Source: an uncultured Candidatus Moduliflexus sp. (lineage in GTDB: Bacteria > Moduliflexota > Moduliflexia > Moduliflexales > Moduliflexaceae). From it: a stretch of DNA of 64,000 nucleotides. The stretch covers positions 3,371 to 67,370 of the forward strand of contig CAZCGG010000001.1 in NCBI GenBank assembly GCA_964498135.1, given 5' to 3'. How positions within the stretch are numbered: the stretch's first letter is position 1; each line of letters starts with the position of its first letter. A program made the translations under genes and the position numbers. The notes beneath the pieces were generated by a model, which saw only the letters and a list, made by a program, of their open reading frames with translations, had not been told where the DNA came from and searched no databases. This document shows positions 33,070 through 62,237 of the stretch, piece after piece.

Positions 33070-33136
33070 TGTCCTGCTGAGTAAAAAGATAATGAAAGAG
33101 ACGCTTCGTCATTAACTCTTGCTCATTCTTAAAAGT

Positions 33137-33728: not shown

Positions 33729-34118
33729 CTATTTCTTTTTCGCGTCTTTTTTCGCCCTCTTCGCCCCATATTTCGAGCGACTCTGCATTCTATTCTGCAC
33801 GCCTGCGCTATCCAATGCGCCACGAACAATATGATAACGAACACCGGGTAAATCTTTCACGCGGCCGCCACGAACCAACACTAACGAGTGTTCCTGCAAA
33901 TTATGGCCGACCCCCGGAATATACGTCGTCACTTCAACCCCGTTCGTCAAACGCACGCGAGCGACTTTTCGAAGCGCAGAGTTCGGTTTTTTCGGCGTTG
34001 ACGTGTACACGCGGACGCATACCCCTCGCTTTTGCGGACATGAGCGCAATGCCGGACTATCTGATTTAGAAGCAACTTTCTGACGACCATTTCTGATCAA
34101 TTGATGAATTGTTGGCAT
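33729..34118 (-). CDS. rpsL: 30S ribosomal protein S12
   Basis: [15 protein letters not shown]...[19 protein letters not shown]... Confidence 0.95.
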
Positions 34119-49605: not shown

Positions 49606-51483
49606 CTAATTTTCCGCAAGCGGCAGGCGAATGTTAAAAATCGTTTTTTCCGCGCTGGCGCACGTGATGATGCCTTGATGCGCCTCAATGATATGCTGGC
49701 AGATGGACAGGCCGAGTCCGGTATTTTTCTTGCCGAGTTTCGTGCTGAAAAATGGATCAAAAATTTTATCCATGACTTCCGGCGGAATGCCCGATCCGTT
49801 ATCCGTCACCGCCAATTCGACATAACCTTCTTCATGTCGCGCATTCAGGGCAATCTCAATCGTTCCCGCTTCCGCAACCGCATCAATGCTGTTGACGACA
49901 AGGTTCATAATCACTTGCTTGAGTTGATTTTCATCCCCGATAATCGGCGCGTCATCGGCATTCTGCGTTCGTAGCAGCGCGATCTGCTTTTCTTTGAGCT
50001 TATGATTGAGCAGCAACAGCGTTTCATCCAACACCGCCGCCAAATTCACGCGCTTCATCGGCAGTGTTTTCCGCCGCGAAAACGACAGCAGACTTTCGAC
50101 AATCCCGCTGATGCGCTGAAGCTCGTCTTCGACTTTGCTCAATTTCTGCTGGCTGTCGTCATCTATCGCGGGTTTGCGCTTCAGTAGCGTGATGTAATTT
50201 TGAATAATGCCTAACGGATTGTTGATTTCGTGCGCAACCCCCGCCGCCACTTCCGCGACGGACGCGATTTTTTGCACGCGCAACAGATATTCATTAAAAT
50301 AGCGTTCCTGCGATACGTCGGCGATAATAATAATCGTGCCGAGAAATTTATAATCCTCGTCTTTGAACGGAAAAATTTGGATTTTCAGGATTTTTTCTTG
50401 TCCATATTTCACGTCATCCCACGCTTCTTCTTCCTGCCGGGAAATTTTTTCCAGAATTTCCGCCGCGTGTTCAATGGAATTGGCGGGGAAAATGGACTGC
50501 ACGCCCTGCCGAAGCATCGCCTGCTCATCAAGGCCGAGAATCCGCGCCGCCGCGTAATTGGCAAGATATACGACCTGCTCAGGATCGAGAATAATCACGC
50601 CTTCCGGCAGATTTTTAATGATATTTTCATTATATTTTTTCAGCAGATACAGTTCCCGGTTGTCGCTTTCCAACTCCTCGCGGCTCATGACAAAGGAATA
50701 GGTCAGCTTAATCAATTTCACTCGGTCGAGATCGCGGACTTCCTCCGTCCCGCGCAAATAGCCGTTATGCAGGATCGTCACGCGGTCGGCAAAGCGAAAA
50801 ATTTCGTCCATGTCGTGCGAAATGTAAATCACGCTTTTGCCCTGTTCTTTCCATTGAAACAGCAGTCGGTAAATGATTTCCATTTCTTCCGGCGTGAACT
50901 TGTTAGCGATTTCATCAAAAATCAACACGTTCGGATCAATGGAAAGCACTTTTGCCAATTCCACGACATGCTGCGCCGCTTCGGAGAGCATTTTAAGCGG
51001 AATGTTCAACGGAATTTCAACGCCAATCAGCGCGAAAATTTCTTTCGCCCGCGCCGCCATTTGACGATCTTTCAGCCAGCCCCAGCCATTCGCAATATCT
51101 CGCCCAGTGAAAATATTTTCCACGGCGGTCATGGTTGGAATAAGCTGGCTTTCTTGATACATCACGCCGATTTTATGCTTGAGAGCTAATTTCGGGGTAA
51201 AATATTCGAATTTCTGGCCGTCGAACCAGATGTCGCCGCGCGCTTTGCGCACCGCGCCGCTCAGCAGCTTGACTAACGTTGATTTTCCGGCGCGGTGTTC
51301 GCCGACCAATCCATGAATTTCGCCGCGATACAGGTCAAAATCCACCCCTTTCAGGATGTGATATTCCCCGTAATATGCATGAATATTTTTCATGGACAAC
51401 AGAGGCGTGTCGCGTTCGTTTTTTTCCATTTGGATATTGAGAAACTCTATTTCTGTGAGAAACTGAATTTCTCCGCGCCGCAA
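49606..51483 (-). CDS. sensor histidine kinase with N-terminal ABC-transporter-type ATPase (NBD) domain: NBD-PAS-HisKA-HATPase_c fusion
   Basis: N-terminal ~240 aa resemble RbsA/MglA NBD1: Walker A GEHRAGKST, Q-loop MYQESQL, signature LSEAAQHVVELAKVL, Walker B LIFDE, H-loop YISHDM. Then PAS, HisKA H-box AHEINNPLG, and N/G1/G2 boxes (NLVVNSIDA, DNGSGI, GLGLSIC). TTG start 7 nt after regulator stop (alternative ATG 51429). Confidence 0.8.
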   Translation of the reverse strand: MRRGEIQFLTEIEFLNIQMEKNERDTPLLSMKNIHAYYGEYHILKGVDFDLYRGEIHGLVGEHRAGKSTLVKLLSGAVRKARGDIWFDGQKFEYFTPKLALKHKIGVMYQESQLIPTMTAVENIFTGRDIANGWGWLKDRQMAARAKEIFALIGVEIPLNIPLKMLSEAAQHVVELAKVLSIDPNVLIFDEIANKFTPEEMEIIYRLLFQWKEQGKSVIYISHDMDEIFRFADRVTILHNGYLRGTEEVRDLDRVKLIKLTYSFVMSREELESDNRELYLLKKYNENIIKNLPEGVIILDPEQVVYLANYAAARILGLDEQAMLRQGVQSIFPANSIEHAAEILEKISRQEEEAWDDVKYGQEKILKIQIFPFKDEDYKFLGTIIIIADVSQERYFNEYLLRVQKIASVAEVAAGVAHEINNPLGIIQNYITLLKRKPAIDDDSQQKLSKVEDELQRISGIVESLLSFSRRKTLPMKRVNLAAVLDETLLLLNHKLKEKQIALLRTQNADDAPIIGDENQLKQVIMNLVVNSIDAVAEAGTIEIALNARHEEGYVELAVTDNGSGIPPEVMDKIFDPFFSTKLGKKNTGLGLSICQHIIEAHQGIITCASAEKTIFNIRLPLAEN

Positions 51484-51490: not shown

Positions 51491-52810
51491 CTATATCCCT
51501 AATTTTTTCATGCGGTTATAAAGCGTTCTCCGGCTGATATTCAGCAAATCCGCCGCCTTCTGCTTCACGCCGCCGCTGCGCCCAAGCGCGTCAAGAATAA
51601 TCTCGCGGTTCAGGCTTTCAAACACTTCCTCATAGCTGCTCGTCGCCGCCCGTTGAATCAATTCCGTGTATTGCGTCGCCAAATCGTCAAGCTCAATCAT
51701 CGGATGCTCGCAGAAAATAATCGCCCGCTCCACGCAATTTTTGAGTTCACGGACATTGCCCGGCCATTGGTGCGAATGAAAAAATCGCCGCACGTCGTCT
51801 GACATGCCCTGAATCTGCTTCTGATACACCTCATTGTAATGCTTGATGAAATACTCCGCGAGCAGCAGCGCGTCGTCCTGCCGCTCGCGCAAGGGCGGCA
51901 AGTGCATCGTCACGACGGACAGCCGATAATACAGGTCATCGCGGAACGTCTGCTCTTCAATCATTTTTTGCAACGGCTTATTTGTGGCGGCGATAATCCG
52001 AATATCGGCTTTCAGCGTTTTCGAGCCGCCCACGCGCTCAAATTCCCGCTCTTGAATCACGCGCAGAATTTTGGCCTGCGTCCGCAAGCTCATGTCGCCG
52101 ATTTCATCGAGAAAAATCGTGCCGTTGTCCGCCAACTCGAATCGCCCCTTGCGCTCTTTGACCGCGCCGGTGAACGCCCCGCGCTCGTGGCCGAAGAGTT
52201 CGCTTTCCAGCAATTCTTCGGGCAACGCCGCGCAATTCACCTTGACGAACGGCTGCGCGGCGCGGCGGCTGAGGTGGTGAATGGAATTCGCCACCATCTC
52301 TTTGCCCGTGCCGCTTTCCCCCGTAATTAAGACCGGCGCGGGCGTCGGCGCGACTTTCTCAATCGTGTGGAGAATTTTCTGCATGGACGGATCCGCCGTC
52401 ACAATCTGATGCGCGCCGGTCGGCTTGGCTTGGCGTTTCCGCTCATCTCTGACCGCCAATTCGCGGATTTCCCGCACAAGTTCCTCAAATTTAATCGGCT
52501 TGGGATAGACGTTCACCGCCCCGTATTTCATGGCGCATACCGCGTCTTCAATCGTCGGATAGCCCGTAATCATAATGACAGGGAGGGCGCGCTGCTGCTG
52601 CTTAATCGTTTTCAGCAACTCGATGCCGCCGATGCCGGGCATGCGAATATCCATGATGAGCAGGTCAATCGCATGTTGCTGAAGCAGGCGAGATGCGTCA
52701 AGCGGATCTGTCGAGTATTCCACTGCATATCCTTCAGCGCGCAGCAATTCCGAGAGGGACAGGCACATTTCAACTTCATCGTCAATCAGCAGGATCGTAT
52801 AGGGCGTCAT
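51491..52810 (-). CDS. sigma54-dependent Fis-family response regulator (REC, AAA+ sigma54-activator, HTH)
   Basis: [11 protein letters not shown]...[16 protein letters not shown]; GESGTGKE Walker A; GAFTGA motif ([19 protein letters not shown]); C-terminal [25 protein letters not shown]. Confidence 0.9.
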
Positions 52811-52845
52811 GGCAAAAAAACAGCCCGGCGGGGTAAGCCGGGCTG
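52811..52845 (-). terminator. intrinsic terminator/attenuator after hydA, T-tract abuts regulator ATG
   Basis: CAGCCCGGC-GGGGTAA-GCCGGGCTG hairpin (52821-52845), followed on the minus strand by TTTTTTTGCC then ATG (52810). Confidence 0.6.
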
Positions 52846-52861
52846 TCGCGTGTTTCAGATG

Positions 52862-54613
52862 TTAGTCTTTTGTGTACTTCTTCTTCGGAAAATATTCCGT
52901 GTGCAGGAGCTCGTGAGCTTTGTGACTGCCCGGTTTTTCAAAGAACTCCGCATACAGGGTTTTAATGGACGGATTTTCATGCGATTTGCGAATGTCTTTA
53001 TCCGTATCCACCTGATACAACGCTTTTGTGCGCTGCTCGATGACTTCCTTCCGTTCTTCGCTGAACGGCTGACCGCCGCCGTTGATGCATCCGCCGGGGC
53101 AGGCCATGATTTCAATCACGTGATATTTCGATTTCCCTTCGCGGATGTTTTGCAACAGCGTCCGGGCGTTGCCAAGCCCCGAAGCCGCCGCGACATTCAA
53201 CTTTTTGCCGCCGAGGTCAATCGTCGTCTCGCGCACGCCTTGCAGCCCGCGCACGGCGGTAAAATTGACATCCTCCAGCGTTTTGCCGGTCGCCCATTCG
53301 TAGGCGGTGCGCAGCGCCGCTTCCAACACGCCGCCAGTCACGCCGAAAATCGCGCCCGCGCCGGTGGATTCGCCGAGTGGATTGTCGAAATCTTCTTCTT
53401 CGATGTAGCGCAGATCAATGCCGGCTTCCTTGAACATCTTCGCCAGTTCGCGCGTCGTGATCACCGTGTCAACGTCTCGCGCCCCGCTGGAGCAGTGTTC
53501 CGGGCGCGCCGCTTCATATTTCTTCGCCAAGCACGGCATGACGGAAACGACCTTCATTTCGTTCGGGCTGACGCCGATTTTCTGGGCATAGTAGGTTTTC
53601 GCCACCGTGCCGAGCATCTGCTGCGGCGATTTGCACGAAGACGGAATGTGCTTCAAATCCGGGAACTGATATTCGAAGAAATTAATCCACGCCGGGCAGC
53701 ACGACGTCAACACCGGCAGGTTTTCGTTCTTCTCAACTCGATCCAGAATCTCGCGGGCTTCTTCCATAATCGTCAAATCCGCGCCGAAATCGGTATCGAA
53801 CACGGCGTCAAAGCCGAGTTTCCGCAATCCGGCGGCGAGCTTGCGCGTCACCGGCTCGCCGAGCGGCAAACCAAATTCTTCGCCAATCGCGGCGCGAACC
53901 GCCGGGGCAATCTGCACGACGGAATGCTTCGCGTCGAAAATCGCCCGCCATGCCTGCTGCGTGGAATTGATGCCGAACAACGCGCCGGTCGGGCAAACGC
54001 TTACGCATTGGCCGCAATACGTGCAAATCGTGTCTTTCAGCGGCTTCATTTCCGCCGTGCCGACGACTGCCGGGAAACCGCGCCCGAAGCCGGTCAACAC
54101 GCCGACCGTCTGCACTTCGTTGCACATCGTTTCGCATCGGCGGCACATGATGCACTTGTCAGGCTCGCGTTTCAAGGCCATGCTGCTCTCATCATCAGGG
54201 TAGGACGATTGCGCCCCGTTGTACGGGCGCTGATTGATGCCGAATTCATACGCCAGCGCTTGCAATTCGCAATCGGTGGATTTCGGGCAGACTAAGCAAT
54301 CGAACGGGTGATCGGAAAGCAGCAGTTCCAGAATTTTCCGGCGCGACCGCAGCACGCGGCGGGAATTCGTCGTAATCTTCATCCCTTCAAACACCGGCGT
54401 GGCGCACGCGGGCGCAAGATTGCGGCGGCCTTCGACTTCGACCACACAAATTCGGCACGACGCCACCTTGTTGACCATTTTCAATTCTTCAAGATTCAGA
54501 TAGCATAAGGTCGGGATATGGATATGCACCTGTTTGGCGGCGTCCAAAATCGTCGTCCCCTCTTTGACCGCTATCGGCTGTTTGTCAATCGTGATATTTA
54601 CCATGTTTTTCAA
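52862..54613 (-). CDS. hydA: [FeFe]-hydrogenase catalytic subunit HydA (N-terminal 2Fe-2S and 4Fe-4S domains plus H-cluster domain)
   Basis: H-cluster motifs L1 TSCCPAW, L2 MPCLAKKYEA, L3 EIMACPGGCINGGGQ; NuoG-like N-terminus with Cys clusters. Confidence 0.92.
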   Translation of the reverse strand: MKNMVNITIDKQPIAVKEGTTILDAAKQVHIHIPTLCYLNLEELKMVNKVASCRICVVEVEGRRNLAPACATPVFEGMKITTNSRRVLRSRRKILELLLSDHPFDCLVCPKSTDCELQALAYEFGINQRPYNGAQSSYPDDESSMALKREPDKCIMCRRCETMCNEVQTVGVLTGFGRGFPAVVGTAEMKPLKDTICTYCGQCVSVCPTGALFGINSTQQAWRAIFDAKHSVVQIAPAVRAAIGEEFGLPLGEPVTRKLAAGLRKLGFDAVFDTDFGADLTIMEEAREILDRVEKNENLPVLTSCCPAWINFFEYQFPDLKHIPSSCKSPQQMLGTVAKTYYAQKIGVSPNEMKVVSVMPCLAKKYEAARPEHCSSGARDVDTVITTRELAKMFKEAGIDLRYIEEEDFDNPLGESTGAGAIFGVTGGVLEAALRTAYEWATGKTLEDVNFTAVRGLQGVRETTIDLGGKKLNVAAASGLGNARTLLQNIREGKSKYHVIEIMACPGGCINGGGQPFSEERKEVIEQRTKALYQVDTDKDIRKSHENPSIKTLYAEFFEKPGSHKAHELLHTEYFPKKKYTKD

Positions 54614-54688
54614 CGTACCGCATGCGCCCGGCTCGCGGAGAATCGTTCTCCTCCAAACGGGACATGTGCGGGACGATCCGGGCAGTCG

Positions 54689-56569
54689 TTACTTTTTGAT
54701 GATCGCTTTGAACTTACAGGTTGACATGCACGCGCCGCATTTGATGCACTTGCTCTGATCAATTGTATGCAACTGCTTCACCTGACCGGAAATGCAGTTG
54801 ACTGGGCAAACGCGAGCGCAGGCCGTGCAGCCTTTGCATTTCTCTGCCAAAATCTCATAGCGCAGCAACTTCTGGCAGACTCCGGCGGGGCAGCGTTTTT
54901 CTTCCACGTGCGCCTGATATTCGTCCATGAAATACTTCAGGGTGCTGAGCACCGGGTTCGGCGCCGTCTGACCAAGACCGCAAAGTGACGTGTCTTTAAT
55001 GATATTGGAGAGTTCTTCCAATTCCGCCAAATGTTCCGGCTTGCCGCGCCCTTCCGTAATATCCGTCAGGATTTCATGCAGGCGTTTGTTGCCGATGCGA
55101 CACGGCGTGCATTTGCCGCACGATTCGTCCACCGTGAATTCAAGGTAGAACTTGGCGATATTGACCATGCAATCTTTCGCGCTCAACACGATCATGCCGC
55201 CCGATCCCATCATTGAGCCAACCGCCGCCAAGGATTGATAGTCAATCGGCGTGTCGAGGAACTGTTTCGGGAGGCAGCCACCGGACGGCCCGCCGGTTTG
55301 CGCCGCTTTGAACTCTGCACCGTCTTTGATGCCGCCGCCGATTTCATAAATGATTTCCCGCAGCGTCGTTCCCATCGGCACTTCCACGAGGCCGACGTTA
55401 TTGATTTGGCCGGAGAGCGCGAACACTTTCGTCCCTTTCGAGGTCGCCGTGCCAATAGAACTGAACCATTCCGCGCCGTTCAAAATAATCGGCGGCACGC
55501 TGGCAAACGTTTCGACGTTGTTCACGTTTGTGGATTTGCCCCACACGCCTTCGACGGACGGGAACGGCGGTTTCGTGGTTGGCTCGCCGCGCTCGCCTTC
55601 AATGGAGTGAATCAGCGCGGTTTCTTCGCCGCAGACGAACGCACCCGCGCCGAGTTTGATTTGCAGATCGAAATTAAAGCCGGTGCCCATGATATTTTTG
55701 CCGATCAACCCGGCTTCTTTGGCTTGCGCTAAGGCGAGTTTCAGCCGTTTGATCGCCAACGGATATTCGGCGCGAATGTAGATGTAGCCGTTCGATGCGC
55801 CGATAGCATAGCCCGCAATCGCCATCGCCTCGAGGACGCTGTGCGAATCGCCTTCCATAATTGACCGATCCATGAACGCGCCCGGATCGCCTTCGTCCGC
55901 GTTGCAGATGATGAATTTTTCATCGCATTTCACAGAACGGGAAATTTCCCATTTTTTGCCGGTCGAGAAGCCGCCGCCGCCGCGCCCGGCCAGCCCGGAT
56001 TTTTTCACCGCGTCAATCACCTGTTCCGGCGTCATCTCGGTCAGCGCTTTGCCCAACGCCTGATATCCTTTGTTCGCAATATATTCTTCGATTTTTTCAG
56101 GGTTAATCAGACCGCAGTTCCGCAGGGAAATGCGCATTTGTTTTTTGTAGAACGTCATTTCCGCCTGCGTCTCGACTTTCTGTTTCAGCGTCGGTTCTTC
56201 GTACAGCAGCTTTTTCACGCGCTTTTTCTCGATGAGATGCGTCTGCACGATTTCTTCGGCATCTTCCGGCTTGACTTGGACGTAGAAGACGTTATCCGGG
56301 AAAATCTGAACAATCGGCCCTTTTTCGCAGAACCCGAAGCAGCCGGTAATGGAGACCTCCACGCTGTTCGTCAATTGCTGGTCGGCGACCGCTTGTTTGA
56401 AATTGGCGACGAGCCGCTGGCTTTCCGACGCCTGACAGCCCGTTCCGCCACAGACAAGCACCATCGTCTTCTGCTGTCCGGCGGCCTTCATATTCACGCG
56501 CGAATCGAGCAGCGACTTGACGTGATCGTATGTTCCCAATAATGCTTGATACGATGTAATCCGTTCCAT
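54689..56569 (-). CDS. hydB: NADH-binding flavoprotein subunit HydB (NuoF-like with N-terminal Trx-like 2Fe-2S and C-terminal 2x[4Fe-4S])
   Basis: 626 aa; VCGGTGCQ...CFGFCEKGP; GRGGGGFSTG FMN site; ESCGKCTPCRIG; C-terminal CPAGVC...CKGCTACARVCP...CIKCGACMSTC. Confidence 0.9.
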   Translation of the reverse strand: MERITSYQALLGTYDHVKSLLDSRVNMKAAGQQKTMVLVCGGTGCQASESQRLVANFKQAVADQQLTNSVEVSITGCFGFCEKGPIVQIFPDNVFYVQVKPEDAEEIVQTHLIEKKRVKKLLYEEPTLKQKVETQAEMTFYKKQMRISLRNCGLINPEKIEEYIANKGYQALGKALTEMTPEQVIDAVKKSGLAGRGGGGFSTGKKWEISRSVKCDEKFIICNADEGDPGAFMDRSIMEGDSHSVLEAMAIAGYAIGASNGYIYIRAEYPLAIKRLKLALAQAKEAGLIGKNIMGTGFNFDLQIKLGAGAFVCGEETALIHSIEGERGEPTTKPPFPSVEGVWGKSTNVNNVETFASVPPIILNGAEWFSSIGTATSKGTKVFALSGQINNVGLVEVPMGTTLREIIYEIGGGIKDGAEFKAAQTGGPSGGCLPKQFLDTPIDYQSLAAVGSMMGSGGMIVLSAKDCMVNIAKFYLEFTVDESCGKCTPCRIGNKRLHEILTDITEGRGKPEHLAELEELSNIIKDTSLCGLGQTAPNPVLSTLKYFMDEYQAHVEEKRCPAGVCQKLLRYEILAEKCKGCTACARVCPVNCISGQVKQLHTIDQSKCIKCGACMSTCKFKAIIKK

Positions 56570-57121
56570 TTATGCCTCCTCCTTGCTTTCCGTTTCCACC
56601 AGATATTCTTCAACGATGCCGCGAACGCTTTCCGGTTTCACTTTGCCGTACACTTTTTCATTAATCATCACGACCGGCGCAAGGCCGCATGCGCCGACGC
56701 AGCGCAGACTTTCAATAGAAAAGCGTTTATCTTCGGTCACTTCGCCGGATTTAATGCCTAACACGCGCTCGAATTCGGCCAGCACTTTTTCCGCGCCGCG
56801 CACGTAGCAGGCCGTTCCCATGCAGACGTTGATTTTGTACTGCCCTTTCGGCGTCGTTGTGAAATAATTGTAAAAACTGATGACGCCGGAGACTTCCGCA
56901 TGATGAACGCCAAAGCGCGTGGCGATGTGCAATTGAACTTCTTCGGGCAGATAGCCGAAAATTTCCTGCGCTTTGTGCAACGATTGAATCAGAAATTCTT
57001 TCTTTCTGGCCGCCTGCGGCTCAACGCCCAATTCTTCGATAAACCGGTCAAGTTCATCATAGAGCGGCTCAGGGAGAATGCGTTGGACAGGTTCCGGGTT
57101 GATATGCAGCTTGTTTAACAT
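56570..57121 (-). CDS. hydC: NuoE-like [2Fe-2S] subunit HydC
   Basis: 183 aa; CMGTACYVRG ... CVGACGLAPV thioredoxin-like ferredoxin motifs. Confidence 0.9.
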   Translation of the reverse strand: MLNKLHINPEPVQRILPEPLYDELDRFIEELGVEPQAARKKEFLIQSLHKAQEIFGYLPEEVQLHIATRFGVHHAEVSGVISFYNYFTTTPKGQYKINVCMGTACYVRGAEKVLAEFERVLGIKSGEVTEDKRFSIESLRCVGACGLAPVVMINEKVYGKVKPESVRGIVEEYLVETESKEEA

Positions 57122-57202
57122 GCGTTCCCCTCCTTACACGGGTGCGTGATTCACTCACATGCCGCGCCTGCGCGGAACATTATGCCATGCGGGTGAATCG
57201 GG

Positions 57203-58366
57203 TTAACAATACTCGATTGTAACATCTTTGTGCAATTCGCGCAGCAGTCGGGCTAATTGCTCCACCAGATTTTTACGAATCGAGATGCTGACGGGCAGCA
57301 GCGGATTTTGATAAAACGGGTTAATCTGCTGCCCGACTAAAAAATGCAAATCGTCGGCATACAAAATTTCCAGCGCAAGCATGGTCGCGCCGTTGATGTC
57401 GGTCGGCAAGCGGCTGTAATCGCCGCGACTCTCTTTGATATGCTCAATCGCCTTGCTGATGGTCAAAATGCCTTCCGTCAGCAGATCTATGCCGTCCAGC
57501 ACGCCGATGGGCGGCGTATCGGGCTTCAACGTGGCGAGTTCGACTTCGATGTCTTGACGCAGATAGCGGGCGACGATATTGCCCGTCGTGCCGCCGCACA
57601 CGATTTTCCGTCCGTCAAATTCCGCGACGCGCTGGGCGCAGCGTTCGTCCTCAGCGCGATCAAGCGGCGGGCCGGTGAAAATCATGGCCGAATGGCGCGG
57701 CCGGAGATACAAGCCGATGAGCGTGGCGTCATCGCCGGGCTGGCTGCCATACAGCATGTTCGTATAATCCAGCACGCGCTCCACGACGGTTTGGGCGGTA
57801 TTGACGCGGCTGTGCAGGATTTCCGCCATGAACTCCGCAATATTGTTCCAGCCCCAGCCAAAATTGAAGGTTTGCCCCAAGCCCGCATACCAGACGCCAT
57901 CGCTGACCGCCGCTAAAAAATCTCCTTCCTCCAACGTCCCTTCTCGAAGCAAGATTTTTTTGTCAAGAATGTTCAAAATCTTCGGCTCAATCTTTTGCTG
58001 AACGCCTCCGGCCTTGAAAAAGAACGTTTCAGGGTTATCGAAATTCATCACGCGGAAATGAAACGAGTGGTGGTCAATTTCAACGACCGTGAACGTGGCA
58101 TACGCGATATTGCGGACTTTGCAAATCGGCAGCGTGCCGAGAATCGTCTCCACCACGTCATACAGCGCGGCGTCGGCTTTCAGCATGGTGATGATGATTT
58201 GCGACGTGAGCGTCGCCAAAATGCTCGCTTTAATCCCGCTGCCCAGCCCATCGGACAGCACGACCCACGTTTTCGTATCCGTCCGGGCGATTTTGACTTG
58301 ATCGCCGCAGATTTCTTCCCCGAATTTGTTCAGCGATTGATACGAAATATCGAGGAAGTGGCTCAT
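57203..58366 (-). CDS. SpoIIE/PP2C-family serine phosphatase with ~150-aa uncharacterised C-terminal domain
   Basis: CGDQVKIARTDTKTWVVLSDGLGSGIKAS, SDGVWYAGLG, GDDATLIGLYL PPM motifs; C-terminal KIVCGGTTGNIVARYL... unrecognised. Confidence 0.75.
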   Translation of the reverse strand: MSHFLDISYQSLNKFGEEICGDQVKIARTDTKTWVVLSDGLGSGIKASILATLTSQIIITMLKADAALYDVVETILGTLPICKVRNIAYATFTVVEIDHHSFHFRVMNFDNPETFFFKAGGVQQKIEPKILNILDKKILLREGTLEEGDFLAAVSDGVWYAGLGQTFNFGWGWNNIAEFMAEILHSRVNTAQTVVERVLDYTNMLYGSQPGDDATLIGLYLRPRHSAMIFTGPPLDRAEDERCAQRVAEFDGRKIVCGGTTGNIVARYLRQDIEVELATLKPDTPPIGVLDGIDLLTEGILTISKAIEHIKESRGDYSRLPTDINGATMLALEILYADDLHFLVGQQINPFYQNPLLPVSISIRKNLVEQLARLLRELHKDVTIEYC

Positions 58367-58896
58367 CGCCGCAACACCTCTTGTTCGACCATTGCTCGGA
58401 GTTTCAGCAGGCTGACTTTGGTTTCCGCCGTCGCTTCGCCCAATAACCCAGCGATTTCCTGCGCAACGTGCATGTGCTTGTTCACGACCTGATTGACTTG
58501 CTCAAGCGTTTCGCGCTGAATGCGGAGCATGTCGTTCTGCTGCTGCCATTCATGCGTCAAATCAACGATAATGCAGGCGACAAAGCCTTCGTTTTTGATG
58601 GGGAAAATCACGCGGCGGGCGTATAAATGGTATTGGGGATATTCGGTTTCCGGGCATTTCACGACTTTATTCTCGCGCCACGCGGTTTGCAGATCGTTCG
58701 CATCCCCAAGCACGGCGGCGATGTCCCGATCCAGCAGATCGGCCTCCGTTTGTTTGAACATATCGCAGAATGCCGGATTGACAAGGCGGATCCGCATGGT
58801 TTGATCCACCACAACCAGCCCATTCGGGTCATAATCCCACAGCAACTTCCAGAGCGTATCGGCGGCGCGGAACGGCATGGCCGGAACTCCTTTCAT
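58363..58896 (-). CDS. stand-alone PAS-domain protein with C-terminal helical segment
   Basis: 177 aa; PAS core LVVVDQTMRIRLVNPAFCDMFKQTEADLLDRDI...; overlaps neighbours by 4 nt on both sides. Confidence 0.65.
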   Translation of the reverse strand: MKGVPAMPFRAADTLWKLLWDYDPNGLVVVDQTMRIRLVNPAFCDMFKQTEADLLDRDIAAVLGDANDLQTAWRENKVVKCPETEYPQYHLYARRVIFPIKNEGFVACIIVDLTHEWQQQNDMLRIQRETLEQVNQVVNKHMHVAQEIAGLLGEATAETKVSLLKLRAMVEQEVLRR

Positions 58897-59162
58897 GACC
58901 GGAGATGCGGCAACATCTCATTGACGAATTTTTCTTCGATATTTTGCGGACGGATGCGCGTGAACAACATCGTTTTGTATTTCAACACAATGCCATCCGA
59001 GCAGGGGCCGAGGCAGAACGCCCCTTTCAATTCAACCGTGAGGTCTAAACGATAGCGCTCAATCAATTCCTGCAATTTTGGCAGCACGTCATAGACGCCT
59101 AATTGATGGCAGGCCGATCCCATGCACACATATAAACACGCTGTTGCTGTTTCTTGTTCCAT
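58893..59162 (-). CDS. thioredoxin-like [2Fe-2S] ferredoxin (NuoE-fold, 89 aa)
   Basis: Cx4C ... Cx3C: VCMGSACHQLG ... FCLGPCSDG. Confidence 0.75.
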   Translation of the reverse strand: MEQETATACLYVCMGSACHQLGVYDVLPKLQELIERYRLDLTVELKGAFCLGPCSDGIVLKYKTMLFTRIRPQNIEEKFVNEMLPHLRS

Positions 59163-59460: not shown

Positions 59461-61116
59461 ATGTCAATCTATCGTGCGCATGTTTTAGTTTCCACTGACG
59501 CCGAAAGCCGACTGCGCGGCGCGGAACAAGTCATTCAGCGTCTTCGGGATGAACTCGCCAAGCGCGACTTAGCCAATGAAATCATGGTCGCCGAAACCGG
59601 CAACCCCGGTCGCGGCGTCCGGCTGCCCGCCGTATTAGTCTATCCCGACGGCGTGACGTATCAGGCCATCTCGCCGGAAGACGCCGCCATCATCGTCGAG
59701 GAACACCTCTACAAAGGCCGCGTGGTCAAAGAATTTACCTCCCAACTCGCGCCGATGACCGGCAGCATCGTTCGCCTTCCCAAAGCGCATAAGCATTTTC
59801 AGGAACAGCAGAAAATCGTGCTGAAAAATTGCGGCGACATCAACCCCGAAGTGATTGAAGAATATATCGCTGTTGACGGCTACATGGCGCTTGGCAAGGC
59901 ATTAACCAACATGACACCGGCACAGACGCTTGAGGAAATCAAAGCCTCCGGGCTGCGCGGACGCGGCGGCGCGGGCTTTCCGACCGGGCGCAAGCTGGAA
60001 TTTTCGCTCGGCGTCAAAGCCGCGCAAAAATATATCGTCTGCAACGCCGACGAATCCGAACCCGGCACGTTCAAAGACCGCCTGATTATCGAGGGCGACC
60101 CGCATAAGCTGATTGAAGGGATGATCATTGCCGGCTATTGCATCGGCGCGACGCAGGGCTACGTCTATATTCGCGGCGAATACGTGCTGGCGCATGACCG
60201 CCTGCTCAAAGCCATCGAGCAAGCTCGGGAAATGGGGCTGCTGGGGAACAATATTTTCAATTCCGGGTTCAATTTCGACATTTTCGTGCATTCCGGCGCG
60301 GGCGCGTATGTTTGCGGCGAAGAGACCGCGCTGCTGAATTCGCTCGAAGGCCAGCGCGGCGAACCGCGCAAACGCCCTCCGTTCCCGCCGGTCGCCGGAT
60401 TTCACCAGATGCCGACCATCGTGAACAATGTCGAAACGCTCGCCAACCTGCCGCCGATTCTGCTGAATGGCGCGGCATGGTTCACGCGCTTCGGCACAGA
60501 AAATTCAACCGGCACGAAAGTTTATACCATGCTCGGCAACATCAACAATACCGGCCTGATTGAAGTGCCGATGGGGATTACGCTGCGCGAAGTCATCGAA
60601 TTCTACGGCGGCGGCATGAAAGATGGCCGGGCGTTCAAATTCGCCCAGACCGGCGGCAGTTCCGGCTCGATTATTCCGCAGGAATTGCAGGACGTGCCGA
60701 TGGATTTCGCGTCAATGGCGAAATACGGCGTGTCAATGGGGTCGGGCGCGCTGCTGATTTGCGATGACCGCGCGTGCGTTGTGGACGTGATTAAAGTGCT
60801 GCTCAATTTTTTCAAGGTCGAATCATGCGGCAAATGCGCGCCCTGCCGAATCGGCACGCAGCAGTTGCACGACGCGTTTGCGCGGATTGCGGGCGGCGTC
60901 GGCACGATGGACGATTTAGAGCGCGCCGCGCATGTGGGCGAGCAGATGATCAAAGCGAGCTTCTGCGGGCTTGGGCAGACCGCGCCCGCGCCGATTCTGA
61001 CAGGCTTGAAATATTTCCGCAGCGAAATCGAAGCGCACATCAGAGATCAGTATTGCGAAGCGAATGTCTGCGAATTCGAGCTTGTGAAAAAGAAAAAAAG
61101 CCCCTCCGCCAAATAG
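59461..61116 (+). CDS. NuoF-like NAD(H)/FMN-binding iron-sulfur protein paralog lacking N-terminal [2Fe-2S] Cys and C-terminal ferredoxin domains
   Basis: 551 aa; GRGGAGFPTG, ESCGKCAPCRIG...C present; N-terminal Trx-like region has no Cys; ends shortly after the SLBB/4Fe-4S module. Confidence 0.85.
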   Translation: MSIYRAHVLVSTDAESRLRGAEQVIQRLRDELAKRDLANEIMVAETGNPGRGVRLPAVLVYPDGVTYQAISPEDAAIIVEEHLYKGRVVKEFTSQLAPMTGSIVRLPKAHKHFQEQQKIVLKNCGDINPEVIEEYIAVDGYMALGKALTNMTPAQTLEEIKASGLRGRGGAGFPTGRKLEFSLGVKAAQKYIVCNADESEPGTFKDRLIIEGDPHKLIEGMIIAGYCIGATQGYVYIRGEYVLAHDRLLKAIEQAREMGLLGNNIFNSGFNFDIFVHSGAGAYVCGEETALLNSLEGQRGEPRKRPPFPPVAGFHQMPTIVNNVETLANLPPILLNGAAWFTRFGTENSTGTKVYTMLGNINNTGLIEVPMGITLREVIEFYGGGMKDGRAFKFAQTGGSSGSIIPQELQDVPMDFASMAKYGVSMGSGALLICDDRACVVDVIKVLLNFFKVESCGKCAPCRIGTQQLHDAFARIAGGVGTMDDLERAAHVGEQMIKASFCGLGQTAPAPILTGLKYFRSEIEAHIRDQYCEANVCEFELVKKKKSPSAK

Positions 61117-61539
61117 AGCTTTTATGAGCGCGCAGGCCGTACCCGGCGTGACATTTTTCGGGGAGATAATTCTGTATGCTATGGCAAGAGGTTTGCGAAC
61201 ATCCCGCGTTGCGGAATTTGCCGTTCAAGATTGAATTGAACAAACGAGGAACAATCCTTATGAGTCCGGTCAACGTGTCGCATTCGTTATTTCAAGGGAA
61301 AATCCTGATTTTGCTGAAAACGCTCTTTCACGAAGGAAGTCTGGCATTGCGCTGAAGACGGGACGCTGACCTTGTACAGTCCAGTTGGGAAAATGCCGCA
61401 TTCCAGCCTTGCGCCTGCGTTTCCGGCGAAGATCGACTTATAAAAGATTGACGCGGTGGCATGAATTTTGCTTGGAATATCCCTGACGCATCTCACTATG
61501 CACAACACAATAAACACATCTTTCAAAGAGGAACGCATT

Positions 61540-62184
61540 ATGAAACATCTGAATCGAATGGGGAACGTTTTTGGCATGCTGTTGGCCGCTCTGCTGGCCT
61601 CTTCGCAAATGGGATTGGCCTGCGAACAAGGTTCGTTTCGGGATTTCAGCGGCGCAACGGACGTTGAATTCGGCAGCGGCACGGTCTATAAATATTCCGT
61701 CATCGCGGACGGAAAATTTCAGTATGTCAAATTCAGCGCCACCGGCGGCGAACTTGGGAACACGTGGAACGAAGGGAACACCTATTATGCCGAAGTGCGC
61801 TGGACGCAAAATAGCGCGGACGATCCCTCGAAGTTGAAAGTTTATGGCGAAGACAAGTGCGGCACGATGCAGGATTTGCGCCATTTCGTCAAGCCCGCCA
61901 GCGGCGGATCGCGCGGCGCGTCCAAAGGAATTGTGCGGCTCTTTGACCAAGAATCGGGCAAAGGGAAGAGTTTTGTCGCGGCGCAAAGCCTTGAAAAGCT
62001 TGGCAACAAGTGGAATGACAAAATCCGGTCGGTCTGGGTCGGCGGCGGCGTCACGCTGATTCTGTATGAAAATTACGAGCATAAAGGCCGCAGCGTGACG
62101 CTGCGCGGCGAAGGCGAGGGCACGATGTTCAACCTCTCGTCCTACGATTTCGACAAAATCGCGTCATCGCTCAAGGTTGAGTAA
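61540..62184 (+). CDS. secreted beta/gamma-crystallin-fold protein
   Basis: ATG 61540 preceded by AAGAGGAA; signal peptide MKHLNRMGNVFGMLLAALLASSQMGLA; C-terminal Greek-key signature ...WNDKIRSVWVGGG...YENYEHKGRSVTL...FDKIASSLKVE. Confidence 0.7.
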   Translation: MKHLNRMGNVFGMLLAALLASSQMGLACEQGSFRDFSGATDVEFGSGTVYKYSVIADGKFQYVKFSATGGELGNTWNEGNTYYAEVRWTQNSADDPSKLKVYGEDKCGTMQDLRHFVKPASGGSRGASKGIVRLFDQESGKGKSFVAAQSLEKLGNKWNDKIRSVWVGGGVTLILYENYEHKGRSVTLRGEGEGTMFNLSSYDFDKIASSLKVE

Positions 62185-62195: not shown

Positions 62196-62237
62196 AAAAA
62201 AACCTGACTGGTGTTCAAGACCGGTCAGGTTTTTTTA
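62196..62237. terminator. bidirectional intrinsic terminator between convergent genes
   Basis: AAAAAAACCTGACTGG-TGTTCAAGA-CCGGTCAGGTTTTTTT; stop codon of the minus-strand kinase gene lies in the loop. Confidence 0.7.

What the first reader, a model, noticed from the sequence alone, without database searches (positions are those of the whole stretch)
49606..51483. Histidine kinase fused to a complete ABC-transporter ATPase domain
The N-terminal ~240 residues align motif-by-motif with the first nucleotide-binding domain of sugar importer ATPases (RbsA/MglA/XylG type). Walker A is GEHRAGKST, the Q-loop is MYQESQL, and the degenerate signature LSEAAQ matches RbsA LSIGDQ. Walker B is LIFDE with the catalytic Glu retained, and the H-loop is YISHDM. 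No transmembrane segment is present, and the NBD is followed by PAS, HisKA and HATPase_c. ABC NBDs dimerise head-to-tail around ATP, and histidine kinases are obligate dimers. ATP-driven NBD dimerisation could therefore act directly as the input switch, for example sensing adenylate or energy charge, or docking onto a transporter. I know of no characterised sensor kinase with this input domain.
Basis: seen in the sequence. Interest (0 to 1): 0.8.

Follow-up and report, generated by a model that had tools for sequence, protein, structure and literature searches.

The report
Sensor kinase with ABC-ATPase input domain
A soluble bacterial sensor kinase uses the ATP-driven motor domain of a sugar-uptake pump as its sensing end; its relatives almost always sit beside such a pump and appear to switch it on, which suggests the kinase plugs into the pump to sense sugar, and I found no published description or solved structure of such a kinase.

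Summary
Window 49606-51429 (minus strand; the ATG at 51429 is a likelier start than the TTG at 51483) encodes an uninterrupted, soluble 607-aa protein. Its order is ABC nucleotide-binding domain (Pfam ABC_tran E=5e-25; NBD1 of CUT2 sugar ATPases E<=1e-47), a near-invariant 45-aa linker, PAS, HisKA and HATPase_c.

It is not a frameshift artefact. More than 120 cluster representatives and 123 genomic loci share its length and architecture, mostly in Spirochaetota and Moduliflexus/Vecturithrix, and dN/dS is about 0.07. The Walker A Lys, Q-loop Gln, Walker B Asp-Glu and H-loop His are invariant or nearly so. The signature is degenerate as in NBD1, and the P-loop (GEHRAGKS) and D-loop are family-specific.

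In most of 80 related loci, the kinase and its sigma54 regulator adjoin a CUT2 sugar importer. That operon carries a sigma54 promoter in 48 of 73 loci and, in eight loci including the nearest relatives, a conserved enhancer repeat. The family therefore controls sugar importers. The NBD probably docks on the importer's permease (inferred, about 45%).

This window's copy is an orphan. It has no transporter or enhancer, and the only sigma54 promoter-like site is 10 kb away. It sits behind a hydrogenase-operon terminator. No literature or PDB precedent was found. It is a new variant of transporter-coupled sensing.

The parts
49606..51429 (-). NBD-PAS-histidine kinase gene (607 aa plus stop). The in-frame TTG at 51483 is an unlikely alternative start.
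   Evidence: ORF; Pfam and NCBIfam; homolog lengths; identical start in four independent assemblies.
50740..51405 (-). ABC nucleotide-binding domain (aa 9-230), NBD1 type of the CUT2 sugar ATPases.
   Evidence: ABC_tran E=5e-25; YtfR, AraG and RbsA first half; pLDDT about 90; Foldseek to FbpC, FtsE and MalK; 33% identity to neighbours' NBD1 against 22% to NBD2.
51277..51303 (-). Walker A, GEHRAGKST (aa 43-51). The Lys is invariant and the His-Arg pair is family-specific.
50971..50988 (-). Degenerate signature motif, LSEAAQ (aa 148-153).
   Evidence: Only L and Q are conserved in the family.
50911..50928 (-). Walker B, VLIFDE (aa 168-173), with the catalytic Glu. It is followed by the family-specific D-loop (this window IANKFTP; family consensus I/L-S-N/S-K-L-T-P).
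   Evidence: D and E are 100% conserved; S93-x-K93-L95-T97-P97 in the family against PTSALT in NBD1.
50809..50826 (-). H-loop, YISHDM (aa 202-207).
   Evidence: His conserved in 99% of members.
50602..50739 (-). Family-specific NBD-to-PAS linker (aa 231-276), nearly invariant. It comprises a hinge followed by a long helix.
   Evidence: Conservation; helix 250-272 and low-pLDDT hinge 232-254; no nonsynonymous changes against the sister lineage; used as the family signature.
50317..50601 (-). PAS domain (aa 277-371).
   Evidence: Pfam PAS_9 and PAS_4; model.
50074..50313 (-). DHp/HisKA helices (aa 373-452). The phospho-acceptor is His400 (HEINNPL; codon 50230-50232).
49621..50055 (-). Catalytic ATP-binding (HATPase_c) domain (aa 459-603) with N, G1, F and G2 boxes.
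51491..52810 (-). Cognate NtrC-type response regulator: REC, sigma54 AAA+ domain (GAFTGA at aa 211) and HTH_8. It lies 61 nt upstream of the kinase ATG.
   Evidence: Pfam; GAFTGA; the same pairing in 75 of 81 loci.
52819..52847 (-). Intrinsic terminator of the upstream hydrogenase operon, ending about 8 nt before the regulator's ATG. No promoter-like site was found between it and the regulator.
   Evidence: 11-bp stem with 8 GC pairs and a T-tract.

Best explanation
WHAT IT IS (shown): a soluble class-I histidine kinase. Its N-terminal input module is an ABC-transporter nucleotide-binding domain derived once, long ago, from NBD1 of a CUT2 (ribose/xylose/galactofuranose-type) sugar-importer ATPase. 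A near-invariant hinge-helix linker joins this NBD to a PAS-DHp-CA kinase core. It is paired with an NtrC-type, sigma54-dependent response regulator encoded immediately upstream.

WHAT THE FAMILY DOES (shown by comparative genomics, not by experiment): the kinase-regulator pair sits beside a complete CUT2 importer, made of a Peripla_BP_4 binding protein, its own ATPase and a BPD_transp_2 permease. That importer's operon carries a sigma54 -24/-12 promoter and, in eight loci including the nearest relatives, one or two copies of the inverted repeat TGRGAA-N6-WTCYCA upstream. The pair is therefore the dedicated transcriptional switch of a sugar importer.

HOW IT MOST LIKELY SENSES (inferred):
1. 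The two NBDs of the kinase dimer dock on the conserved coupling helices (GxNxxAARLSG) of the importer's permease dimer, as a transport ATPase would.
2. Docking of the sugar-loaded binding protein on the outside drives ATP-dependent closure of the NBDs.
3. The change in spacing at the NBD C-termini passes through the linker coiled coil and PAS to the DHp bundle.
4. This switches autophosphorylation of His400, and the phosphorylated regulator then activates the sigma54 promoter.
5. The degenerate signature and the remodelled P-loop and D-loop would make this NBD homodimer a slow, signalling-grade ATPase rather than a motor.

THIS WINDOW'S COPY: it is intact and under strong purifying selection, but it is an orphan. 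There is no CUT2 gene and no enhancer repeat in the 64 kb, and the only sigma54 promoter-like site is 10 kb away in front of an unrelated gene. Its partner permease and regulon must lie elsewhere in the genome. It is probably transcribed by read-through of the hydABC terminator.
For: Architecture and integrity:
-.

Conserved family rather than an accident:
- At least 120 cluster representatives at 51-99% identity share the Pfam architecture.
- 123 loci occur in species-representative genomes.
- The linker-only query finds about 160 representatives, of which about 90 are around 600 aa with the linker at residues 222-300.
- dN/dS is 0.07 for the NBD, 0 for the linker and 0.08 for the kinase, measured against a sister lineage.

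Single origin from NBD1:
- Identity is 53% among kinase NBDs, 33% to NBD1 and 22.5% to NBD2. Same-locus NBD1 (33.2%) is no closer than other-locus NBD1 (33.0%).
- The motif pattern equals that of NBD1.

ATP machinery kept:
- The A-loop Tyr20 is nearly invariant. K49, D172 and E173 are conserved in 100% of 76 family NBDs and H205 in 99%. Q92 is invariant in the 16- and 40-sequence alignments.

Transporter linkage:
- The sigma54 regulator is adjacent in 75 of 81 loci.
- The binding protein, permease and tandem ATPase all lie within 5 genes in 47 of 81 loci; 73 of the 80 related loci carry a binding-protein or permease gene somewhere in the fetched locus, and several of the rest are truncated contigs.
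- Two of the three nearest non-conspecific relatives have the cassette directly downstream.

Regulon:
- There are 41 strict sigma54 sites against about 5 expected, and 25 of them lie within 160 nt upstream of a cassette gene.
- With the relaxed matrix, 52 of 127 hits fall in the 2.9% of sequence that lies upstream of transporter genes, in 48 of 73 loci.
- The enhancer repeat sits in the kinase-to-transporter intergenic region of 8 loci, against about 1.4 matches expected over all loci.

Support for docking specifically:
- The Q-loop to helical-subdomain segment, which forms the coupling-helix groove in ABC importers (established from the MalFGK2 and MetNI structures), keeps the NBD1 consensus: IPSLNAVENIFAGR against IPSLTVAENIFLGR.
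- The permease EAA-type motif GxNEEAARLSGV is shared by the two permeases examined.
- Three loci (L022, L044, L082) have an extra binding-protein plus permease pair with no ATPase of its own next to the kinase.
- Geometry is compatible. In MalK and MetN, the C-terminal domains hang from the NBD dimer on the side opposite the membrane, and Foldseek aligns MetN and PH0203 over about 400 columns.
Against: - No physical interaction has been shown or modelled.
- Gene adjacency is fully explained by the transporter being the regulon. It does not by itself require docking.
- The adjacent importers have their own complete ATPases, either tandem or self-sufficient single NBDs. These would compete for the same permease.
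- A homodimer of NBD1-like domains places a degenerate signature opposite each Walker A, and the P-loop Gly is replaced by Arg. Canonical ATP-sandwich closure may therefore be impaired.
- The PAS domain could be the true ligand sensor.
- The copy in this window has no transporter, no enhancer repeat and no nearby sigma54 promoter. For this gene, both partner and target are unknown.
Confidence: 0.5

Rival explanations
1. Free-standing ATP or energy-charge switch. The NBDs of the kinase dimer close around ATP in the cytoplasm without touching any transporter, and adenylate status gates kinase activity. The sugar importer is merely the regulon.
For: - The ATP-binding and catalytic residues are invariant.
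- The P-loop and D-loop, both at the NBD-NBD interface in ABC dimers, carry family-specific invariant changes, as expected for an interface remodelled for homodimerisation.
- The protein is soluble.
- The window's copy works without an adjacent transporter.
Against: - It does not explain why the input domain comes specifically from the sugar-importer NBD1 lineage.
- It does not explain why nearly every paralog, up to three per genome, is tied one-to-one to its own CUT2 importer.
- It leaves sugar specificity unexplained.
- A pure binding sensor would not need the catalytic Glu and the H-loop His to be invariant.
Confidence: 0.2
2. The PAS domain senses an internalised sugar or metabolite. The NBD is only a dimerisation scaffold or an evolutionary relic with no signalling role.
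For: - PAS domains commonly bind cytoplasmic ligands.
- PAS residues of about 296-345 vary between paralogs, as specificity determinants might.
- In L081, a neighbouring protein uses a cytoplasmic Peripla_BP plus PAS module to sense.
Against: - The NBD is as constrained as the kinase core, with dN/dS of 0.07 against 0.08.
- The catalytic residues are conserved in 99-100% of 76 members.
- The NBD-to-PAS linker is the most conserved stretch of the protein. That fits signal transmission from the NBD and does not fit a relic.
Confidence: 0.12
3. Partner-switch or bifunctional model. Either the NBD binds the importer's own ATPase or another soluble partner, reporting idle versus busy transporter as in a reversed MalK-MalT. 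Or it actually energises transport through binding-protein plus permease pairs that lack an ATPase.
For: - L022, L044 and L082 have extra permease plus binding-protein pairs without an ATPase.
- MalK-MalT is an established precedent for an NBD subunit acting as a regulator (own knowledge).
Against: - Most loci have exactly one permease set together with its own ATPase.
- The idea that the kinase NBD is the missing half of a split ATPase was tested and rejected. The short ATPases have both a canonical Walker A and LSGGQRQ.
- The degenerate signature argues against an efficient motor.
Confidence: 0.1
4. Artefact: two separate genes, an ABC ATPase and a kinase, joined by a sequencing frameshift, a misassembly or a read-through annotation.
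For: None found.
Against: - The ORF is uninterrupted.
- At least 120 homologs have the same length and domain order.
- Four independent assemblies carry the same 607-aa gene.
- The junction region is the most conserved part of the protein.
Confidence: 0.01

Closest known systems
BceS-BceAB flux-sensing modules of Firmicutes (bioRxiv 10.1101/2020.02.28.969956; review PMC8534201)
   Same: The activity of a histidine kinase is controlled by an ABC transporter, and the two-component system in turn induces that transporter's operon. The logic is transporter-coupled sensing.
   Different: - BceS is a two-TM intramembrane kinase that contacts the permease BceB within the membrane, and the ATPase BceA is a separate protein.
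- Here the kinase is soluble and is itself fused to an NBD.
- The transporter here is a binding-protein-dependent sugar importer, not a peptide-antibiotic resistance pump.
- The regulator here is sigma54-dependent, not OmpR-type.
Kinases fused to transporter membrane domains, such as KsAmt5 (Amt domain-HK; PMC8534201) and CbrA-type SLC5-HK (own knowledge)
   Same: A transporter module has been recruited in cis as the input domain of a histidine kinase.
   Different: Those fusions carry the substrate-binding membrane domain. Here only the cytoplasmic ATPase engine is fused, so any substrate information must arrive through separate permease and binding-protein subunits.
NBD1 of CUT2 sugar-importer ATPases (RbsA, YtfR, AraG, AlsA, XylG, MglA)
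   Same: - These are the best NCBIfam hits, at 1e-38 to 7e-54 over the first half of the models.
- The motif pattern is the same: canonical Walker A Lys, Q, DE and H, with a degenerate signature.
- The fold is the same.
   Different: - The kinase has one NBD, not two.
- Scores are far below every equivalog cutoff (183 against 850 for YtfR).
- The P-loop is GEHR instead of GENG and the D-loop is ISNKLTP instead of PTSALT.
- It is followed by a kinase rather than by NBD2.
AtoS/AtoC, ZraS/ZraR and NtrB/NtrC sigma54-dependent two-component systems
   Same: - The PAS-HisKA (HEINNPL)-HATPase_c core aligns to AtoS positions 263-610 (E=5e-77) and to ZraS.
- The regulator is REC-AAA+(GAFTGA)-HTH_8, and AtoC is its best hit.
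   Different: - AtoS and ZraS are membrane proteins with periplasmic or TM input.
- The score of 260 is below the AtoS cutoff of 646, so the public 'AtoS' annotations of family members are over-calls.
- The regulon is a sugar importer, not acetoacetate or zinc-stress genes.
MalK (regulatory C-terminal domain; MalK-MalT and EIIA-Glc control) and MetN C2 domains (own knowledge; structures 3puv and 3tui appear)
   Same: The NBD of an ABC importer carries a C-terminal extension that hangs below the NBD dimer and links the transport state to regulation.
   Different: In MalK and MetN, the extension is a small regulatory domain acting on the transporter or sequestering an activator. Here the extension is a complete PAS-histidine kinase, and the NBD is not the transporter's own engine.
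XylFII-LytS and other binding-protein-dependent kinases (LuxPQ, TorTS, ChvE-VirA) (own knowledge)
   Same: A two-component system adjacent to a CUT2 importer senses the sugar through a periplasmic binding protein and induces the importer.
   Different: In those systems, the binding protein contacts the kinase's own periplasmic or membrane domain. This kinase has no membrane or periplasmic part.
KdpD N-terminal P-loop domain (own knowledge)
   Same: It is a sensor kinase with a cytoplasmic Walker A/B nucleotide-binding input domain that controls a transporter operon.
   Different: The KdpD N-domain is not an ABC-type NBD, and KdpD is membrane-anchored.

Membership tests
ABC ATPase superfamily (Pfam PF00005 ABC_tran) | Profile score above the gathering threshold | tested here: met
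   89.1 bits against a cutoff of 25, E=5.2e-25.
ABC ATPase superfamily (Pfam PF00005 ABC_tran) | Walker A GxxGxGK[ST] | tested here: inconclusive
   GEHRAGKST. The general P-loop pattern GxxxxGK[ST] and the Lys are present, but the fourth-position Gly typical of ABC proteins is Arg in 99% of family members.
ABC ATPase superfamily (Pfam PF00005 ABC_tran) | Q-loop Gln, Walker B hhhhDE with catalytic Glu, and H-loop His | tested here: met
   Q92 is invariant in the 16- and 40-sequence alignments. D172 and E173 are conserved in 100% of 76 members and H205 in 99%.
ABC ATPase superfamily (Pfam PF00005 ABC_tran) | Signature (C-loop) LSGGQ | tested here: not met
   LSEAAQ. Only L (99%) and Q (95%) are conserved and there is no GG. 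NBD1 of CUT2 ATPases shows the same degeneracy.
ABC ATPase superfamily (Pfam PF00005 ABC_tran) | RecA-like plus helical subdomain fold | tested here: met
   AF2 pLDDT of about 90 over aa 9-230. Foldseek matches FbpC at rmsd 2.4 over 224 columns and FtsE at TM 0.83-0.85.
ABC ATPase superfamily (Pfam PF00005 ABC_tran) | ATP binding and hydrolysis | not testable with these tools
   This needs biochemistry on aa 1-232 and on the full-length protein.
CUT2 sugar-importer ATPase (RbsA/YtfR/AraG/XylG/MglA equivalogs) | Two tandem NBDs in one polypeptide of about 500 aa | tested here: not met
   There is one NBD. Only positions 1-246 of the roughly 500 model positions align.
CUT2 sugar-importer ATPase (RbsA/YtfR/AraG/XylG/MglA equivalogs) | Score above the NCBIfam equivalog cutoff | tested here: not met
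   183 against 850 (YtfR), 179 against 689 (AraG) and 162 against 745 (RbsA).
CUT2 sugar-importer ATPase (RbsA/YtfR/AraG/XylG/MglA equivalogs) | Encoded with a BPD_transp_2 permease and a Peripla_BP_4 binding protein | tested here: not met
   Not met in this window. Across the family, 73 of the 80 related loci carry a binding-protein or permease gene, and those loci also have their own ATPase.
Class I (HisKA) sensor histidine kinase | H-box His in the DHp, and N, G1, F and G2 boxes in the CA domain | tested here: met
   H400 (HEINNPL), N509/N513, D543-G545-G547, F557 and G571-G573 are invariant across 40 members. HisKA E=3e-13 and HATPase_c E=6e-27.
Class I (HisKA) sensor histidine kinase | Adjacent cognate response regulator | tested here: met
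   A REC-sigma54 AAA+-HTH_8 gene lies 61 nt upstream of the kinase ATG. The same pairing occurs in 75 of 81 loci.
AtoS (NCBIfam NF008468), the name public sources give to family members | Full-length match above the cutoff, with the membrane-anchored N-terminal region | tested here: not met
   259.8 bits against a cutoff of 646. Only model positions 263-610 align, and there is no TM segment.
Bce-type transporter-dependent kinase | Intramembrane-sensing kinase with two TM helices and no input domain, partnered with a BceAB-type transporter | tested here: not met
   There are no TM helices. The neighbours in the family are binding-protein-dependent importers. The resemblance is functional only.
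NBD-PAS-HK family defined here | GEHRAGKS P-loop, ISxKLTP D-loop, KLxYSFxxSREEL...YNExIIxNxP linker, and a PAS-HisKA-HATPase_c protein of about 605 aa | tested here: met
   All are present in the window protein.
NBD-PAS-HK family defined here | Adjacent CUT2 importer operon with a sigma54 promoter and the TGRGAA-N6-WTCYCA enhancer | tested here: not met
   The window has no CUT2 genes and no enhancer repeat beyond chance. Its only sigma54 site, at 61457, lies in front of an unrelated gene.

The most novel reading that the evidence does not exclude
The kinase dimer physically takes the place of the transport ATPase on the permease dimer of a binding-protein-dependent ABC importer. This creates a receptor complex of binding protein, permease and NBD-kinase. 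A soluble cytoplasmic kinase would thereby read extracellular sugar through ABC transmembrane domains, with slow ATP-dependent NBD closure as the transmembrane signal. That would make an ABC importer scaffold work as a signalling receptor. It would be a mechanism of transmembrane signalling for two-component systems that has not been described.
Probability: 0.4. Interest if true: 0.85.

Novelty: new variant of a known kind. Interest (0 to 1): 0.66.

Why it matters
Two long-standing questions meet here: how ABC importers transmit binding-protein docking across the membrane to their NBDs, and how histidine kinases without membrane or periplasmic parts perceive external signals.

A natural NBD-kinase fusion offers a built-in reporter. 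Autophosphorylation of the kinase and transcription from the sigma54 promoter would report the conformational state of the NBD.

If the NBD docks on the permease, this would be a new class of receptor. It would also provide a modular design for biosensors, pairing any CUT2 binding protein and permease with a transcriptional output.

The work also corrects annotation. Family members are currently labelled 'AtoS' or 'ATP-binding cassette domain-containing protein'. It further predicts the regulon (CUT2 sugar importers), the promoter type (sigma54) and an enhancer motif for dozens of uncultured Spirochaetota and for Moduliflexus/Vecturithrix relatives.

Tried and rejected
1. Frameshift or two-gene artefact: rejected.

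2. The kinase NBD is the missing NBD1 of a split transporter ATPase. In loci with short (~264 aa) ATPases, those ATPases have both a canonical Walker A (GDNGAGKS) and LSGGQRQ, so they are self-sufficient. Rejected.

3. The NBD arose by recent duplication of the neighbouring ATPase. Same-locus identity (33.2%) equals other-locus identity (33.0%). Rejected in favour of one ancient fusion.

4. Functional linkage to the adjacent [FeFe]-hydrogenase.
   - hydAB lies near the kinase in only 1 of 80 related loci, and there on the opposite strand.
   - There is no sigma54 promoter or enhancer repeat around the hyd operon.
   - Not a family trait. Only transcriptional read-through in this lineage remains possible.

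5. Finding the orphan copy's target inside the window.
   - There are no CUT2 genes.
   - The one good sigma54 site, at 61457, precedes an unrelated secreted protein and has no enhancer repeat.
   - Unresolved.

6. A structural template for the NBD-permease interface. No CUT2 permease or tandem ATPase is in the PDB.

7. Literature precedent. Ten full-text searches and checks of four papers found no description of an NBD-kinase fusion. The library lacks most subscription-journal papers, so absence is not proof.

8. Mirror-tree or co-variation analysis between the NBD and the permease. I considered this and did not run it, because co-inheritance of the whole cassette would confound it and about 60 sequences are too few for direct-coupling analysis.

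9. Taxonomic placement of the window. The closest named relatives, at 63-68% identity, are Ca. Moduliflexus and Ca. Vecturithrix.


Full report
OBSERVATION

The ORF at 49606..51483 lies on the minus strand and is uninterrupted: 625 aa from a TTG. The ATG at 51429 gives 607 aa. This matches the 600-615 aa of homologs and the start used by independent gene calls in four other assemblies. I use 607-aa numbering below.

Pfam gives ABC_tran (E=5.2e-25, 89 bits against a gathering score of 25), PAS_9/PAS_4, HisKA (3e-13) and HATPase_c (6e-27), in that order. NCBIfam aligns residues ~10-256 (28-274 of the 625-aa ORF) to the first half of the tandem sugar ATPases: YtfR (6.6e-54), AraG, AlsA, RbsA (2.8e-47), XylG and MglA. 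It aligns residues ~260-606 (278-624) to AtoS positions 263-610. All of these scores are far below the equivalog cutoffs.

The strongest 19-residue hydrophobic window scores 1.5 and lies inside the NBD core, so there is no TM segment.

An AlphaFold2 model built on a 40-sequence family alignment has a mean pLDDT of 79. It shows these modules:
- a confident NBD (aa 9-230, pLDDT about 90)
- a low-confidence hinge (aa 232-254)
- a long helix (aa 250-272)
- PAS (aa 277-371)
- a two-helix DHp (aa 373-452)
- a CA domain (aa 459-603)

Foldseek against the PDB superposes the N-terminal half on transporter NBDs (FbpC, FtsE, MalK; rmsd 2.4-3 A). It superposes the C-terminal half on PAS/LOV-kinases (YF1, ThkA, ZraS). 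No solved chain spans both halves.

A CONSERVED FAMILY, NOT AN ACCIDENT

- A search of 5.8 billion protein clusters returned at least 120 representatives of about 605 aa, at 51-99% identity over the full length, all with PF00005 plus PAS, HisKA and HATPase_c.
- A scan of one genome per species (185,579 genomes) found 123 loci. Nearly all are in Spirochaetota MAGs and in the UASB14/UASB270 and Ca. Vecturithrix/Moduliflexus records. A few are in Desulfobacteraceae, Gynuella and Elusimicrobia bins. Some genomes hold up to three paralogs.
- The 76-residue linker alone, used as a family-specific probe against 1.84 billion 50%-identity representatives, found 160 hits. About 90 of them are ~600 aa with the linker at residues 222-300.
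- Against a 97%-identical sister lineage, dN/dS is 0.07 for the NBD, 0 for the linker and 0.08 for the PAS-kinase part. The NBD of this particular copy is therefore as constrained as the kinase.

ANATOMY OF THE NBD

I compared 76 kinase NBDs with NBD1 and NBD2 of 64 neighbouring tandem ATPases.
- The kinase domain is 33% identical to NBD1 and 22.5% to NBD2.
- It is no closer to the NBD1 next door (33.2%) than to any other (33.0%). Together with its internal coherence (53%), this indicates a single ancient fusion.
- In the tandem ATPases, NBD1 has a canonical Walker A (GENGAGKST), Q, DE and H, with a degenerate signature (LSvsQQ). NBD2 has a degenerate Walker A (GxxGxGR) and lacks the Q and H, but has a canonical LSGGNQQ. 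This gives one consensus ATP site per ATPase.
- The kinase domain reproduces the NBD1 pattern. The A-loop Tyr20 is nearly invariant. K49, D172 and E173 are 100% conserved and H205 is 99% conserved. Q92 is invariant in the 16- and 40-sequence alignments. In the signature, only L and Q are conserved.
- Two synapomorphies are nearly invariant: GEN-G becomes GEH-R in the P-loop, and DE-PTSALT becomes DE-(I/L)S(N/S)KLTP in the D-loop. In ABC sandwich dimers both elements lie at the NBD-NBD interface (established structural knowledge). I infer that the interface was remodelled for NBD1-like homodimerisation.
- 'Complete ATPase domain' is therefore right for the nucleotide-binding half-site. It is uncertain for closure and hydrolysis.

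CONTEXT ACROSS THE FAMILY

I called ORFs in 80 related loci plus the window, chose genes by cross-locus conservation, and clustered them. Beyond the kinase, four families recur:
- A sigma54-dependent REC-AAA+-HTH_8 regulator lies immediately upstream in 75 of 81 loci.
- A Peripla_BP_4 sugar-binding protein occurs in 65 loci.
- A BPD_transp_2 permease occurs in 69 loci.
- A tandem-NBD ATPase of about 510 aa recurs alongside these.

Pfam confirms these identities. All three transporter parts lie within five genes of the kinase in 47 of 81 loci. In all, 73 of the 80 related loci carry a binding-protein or permease gene. Several of the exceptions are truncated contigs.

The cassette lies downstream, upstream or divergent from the pair. 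Two of the three nearest non-conspecific relatives have it directly downstream. The third has a CUT1 sugar transporter and a rhamnosidase instead.

THE REGULON

- Strict sigma54 -24/-12 matches (TGGYAY-N5-TTGCW) number 41 in 1.38 Mb. About 5 are expected from base composition, and 25 lie within 160 nt upstream of a cassette gene.
- With a relaxed matrix there are 127 hits, against 70 +/- 7 in shuffles. Of these, 52 fall in the 2.9% of search space that lies within 300 nt upstream of a transporter gene. They occur in 48 of the 73 loci that carry a permease or binding-protein gene.
- In eight loci, including the nearest relatives (L002, L003, L005, L082, L083), the kinase-to-transporter intergenic region also carries one or two copies of the inverted repeat TGRGAA-N6-WTCYCA, 100-250 nt upstream of the sigma54 site. 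About 1.4 matches are expected over all loci.

This is the layout of a bacterial enhancer-binding-protein target. I conclude with high confidence, although from genomics alone, that the family is the dedicated switch of a CUT2 sugar importer.

THIS WINDOW'S COPY IS AN ORPHAN

- tblastn with binding-protein, permease and ATPase queries finds nothing in the 64 kb except the kinase's own NBD.
- The enhancer repeat is absent beyond chance.
- The only good sigma54 site (61457, TGGCATGAATTTTGCT) precedes an unrelated secreted protein.
- The regulator's recognition helix ([12 protein letters not shown]) is identical to that of L005. The same enhancer would therefore be expected, so the target must lie elsewhere in the genome.

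Upstream is an [FeFe]-hydrogenase operon. Its strong terminator (52847-52819) ends about 8 nt before the regulator's ATG, and no promoter-like site lies between them. Downstream are four tRNA genes and tuf. Four independent assemblies reproduce this arrangement. Hydrogenase adjacency is not a family trait: it occurs in only 1 of 80 loci, and there on the opposite strand. The hyd operon has no sigma54 or enhancer signal.

MECHANISM

Shown: the architecture, conservation of the ATP half-site, conservation of the linker, the pairing with a sigma54 regulator, and the linkage to CUT2 importers with sigma54 promoters and enhancers.

Inferred: how the NBD senses. I favour docking on the permease (about 45%), for five reasons:
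- The input domain descends from the very subunit that docks there.
- The Q-loop to helical-subdomain segment, which forms the coupling-helix groove in solved ABC importers, keeps the NBD1 consensus (IPSLNAVENIFAGR against IPSLTVAENIFLGR).
- The permease EAA-type motif (GxNEEAARLSGV) is shared by the two permeases examined.
- Three loci have extra binding-protein plus permease pairs without an ATPase beside the kinase.
- A C-terminal extension hanging from an NBD dimer on the side away from the membrane is the MalK/MetN geometry. It would feed NBD opening and closing straight into the linker coiled coil.

Invariance of the catalytic Glu and the H-loop His suggests a real, probably slow, ATP cycle rather than mere binding.

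Against the docking model:
- Adjacency is explained by the regulon alone.
- The importers have their own complete ATPases, which would compete for the permease.
- The degenerate signature facing a P-loop Arg may hinder closure.
- The PAS domain could be the sensor.
- No complex could be modelled.

COMPARISON WITH WHAT IS KNOWN

Functionally, the closest system is BceS-BceAB flux sensing, in which an ABC transporter controls its kinase (bioRxiv 10.1101/2020.02.28.969956; PMC8534201). Architecturally, the closest are kinases fused to transporter membrane domains, such as KsAmt5 (PMC8534201).

Neither involves an NBD fused to a kinase. The 2021 review of kinase input mechanisms lists no such case, and ten full-text searches found none.

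The protein is not a member of the CUT2 ATPase equivalogs, because it has a single NBD and scores below cutoff. It is not AtoS, because it scores below cutoff and has no membrane part. It is not a Bce-type kinase, because it has no TM helices.

VERDICT

The fusion is real and conserved and, as far as I could find, uncharacterised. It is a new variant of transporter-coupled two-component sensing. The family-level regulon prediction is strong, while the sensing mechanism remains open and testable. The copy in this window is an atypical orphan, so a transporter-linked relative is a better experimental entry point than this locus. Interest: 0.66.

Noticed in passing
window 52862-59162 (-): An operon for a HydABC-type [FeFe]-hydrogenase: HydC/NuoE-like 56570-57121, HydB/NuoF-like 54689-56569 and HydA 52862-54613. 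It is preceded in the same operon by an 89-aa Cys-rich ORF (58893-59162), a small PAS protein (58363-58896) and a PP2C/SpoIIE phosphatase (57203-58366). This looks like a built-in regulatory module for the hydrogenase. A sigma70-like TTGACA promoter lies upstream.
   Followed up: partly
window 52819-52847 (-): A strong intrinsic terminator (11-bp stem with 8 GC pairs, then a T-tract) ends only about 8 nt before the response-regulator ATG at 52810, and no promoter-like site lies between them. The two-component genes may be expressed by terminator read-through from the hydrogenase operon.
   Followed up: partly
window 61457-62184 (+): This is the best sigma54 -24/-12 site in the window (TGGCATGAATTTTGCT). 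It lies about 65 nt upstream of a 214-aa secreted protein (ATG 61540) with weak beta/gamma-crystallin and Inhibitor_I36 hits, and a terminator follows the gene. No enhancer repeat of the NBD-kinase family type is nearby, and its activator is unknown.
   Followed up: partly
window 52367-54295 (+): A 642-aa ORF lies antisense to hydA and is longer than hydA itself (583 aa). It is almost certainly spurious, but a longest-ORF gene caller would pick it.
   Followed up: no
window 59461-61116 (+): A second NuoF-like gene (Complex1_51K, SLBB, NADH_4Fe-4S) is transcribed divergently from the hydrogenase operon.
   Followed up: no
window 62215-63417 (-): A hybrid REC-HisKA-HATPase_c protein of 400 aa, with the receiver domain at the N-terminus.
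   Followed up: no
window 804-8891 (+): A chemotaxis cluster: a double-REC protein, an MCP with HAMP, CheA with fused CheW and REC, and CheB. It is followed by another REC protein at 9560-10762.
   Followed up: no
window 16000-34000: GC content falls to 43-45% with strongly negative GC skew, against 50-57% elsewhere in the window. The low-GC stretch was not annotated; it lies just beyond the rpoB/rpoC region, which begins at about 34.4 kb.
   Followed up: no
L081 9898-13680: In one relative, the NBD-kinase is followed by a 1260-aa protein that combines Peripla_BP_1/3, PAS and a sigma54-activator domain. This appears to be a one-component cytoplasmic sugar-sensing enhancer-binding protein. A CUT1 transporter and a rhamnosidase come next.
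   Followed up: no
L082 14555-16550; also L022 and L044: An extra permease plus binding-protein pair, with no ATPase gene of its own, lies next to the NBD-kinase. These pairs are candidates for a dedicated sensing complex that uses the kinase's NBD.
   Followed up: partly
L074 3426-4676 and eight other loci (cluster 4): A URO-D-like (uroporphyrinogen decarboxylase/methyltransferase family) gene of about 418 aa recurs beside the CUT2 cassette in 9 loci. Its function in this context is unknown.
   Followed up: no
L046, L052, L057, L062, L067, L069: A sub-group of the adjacent importers uses a single-NBD ATPase of about 264 aa (GDNGAGKS and LSGGQRQ) with a larger permease of about 415 aa, in place of the tandem ATPase. 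In L057, L062, L067 and L069 a conserved protein of about 613 aa (cluster 10) also accompanies them.
   Followed up: partly
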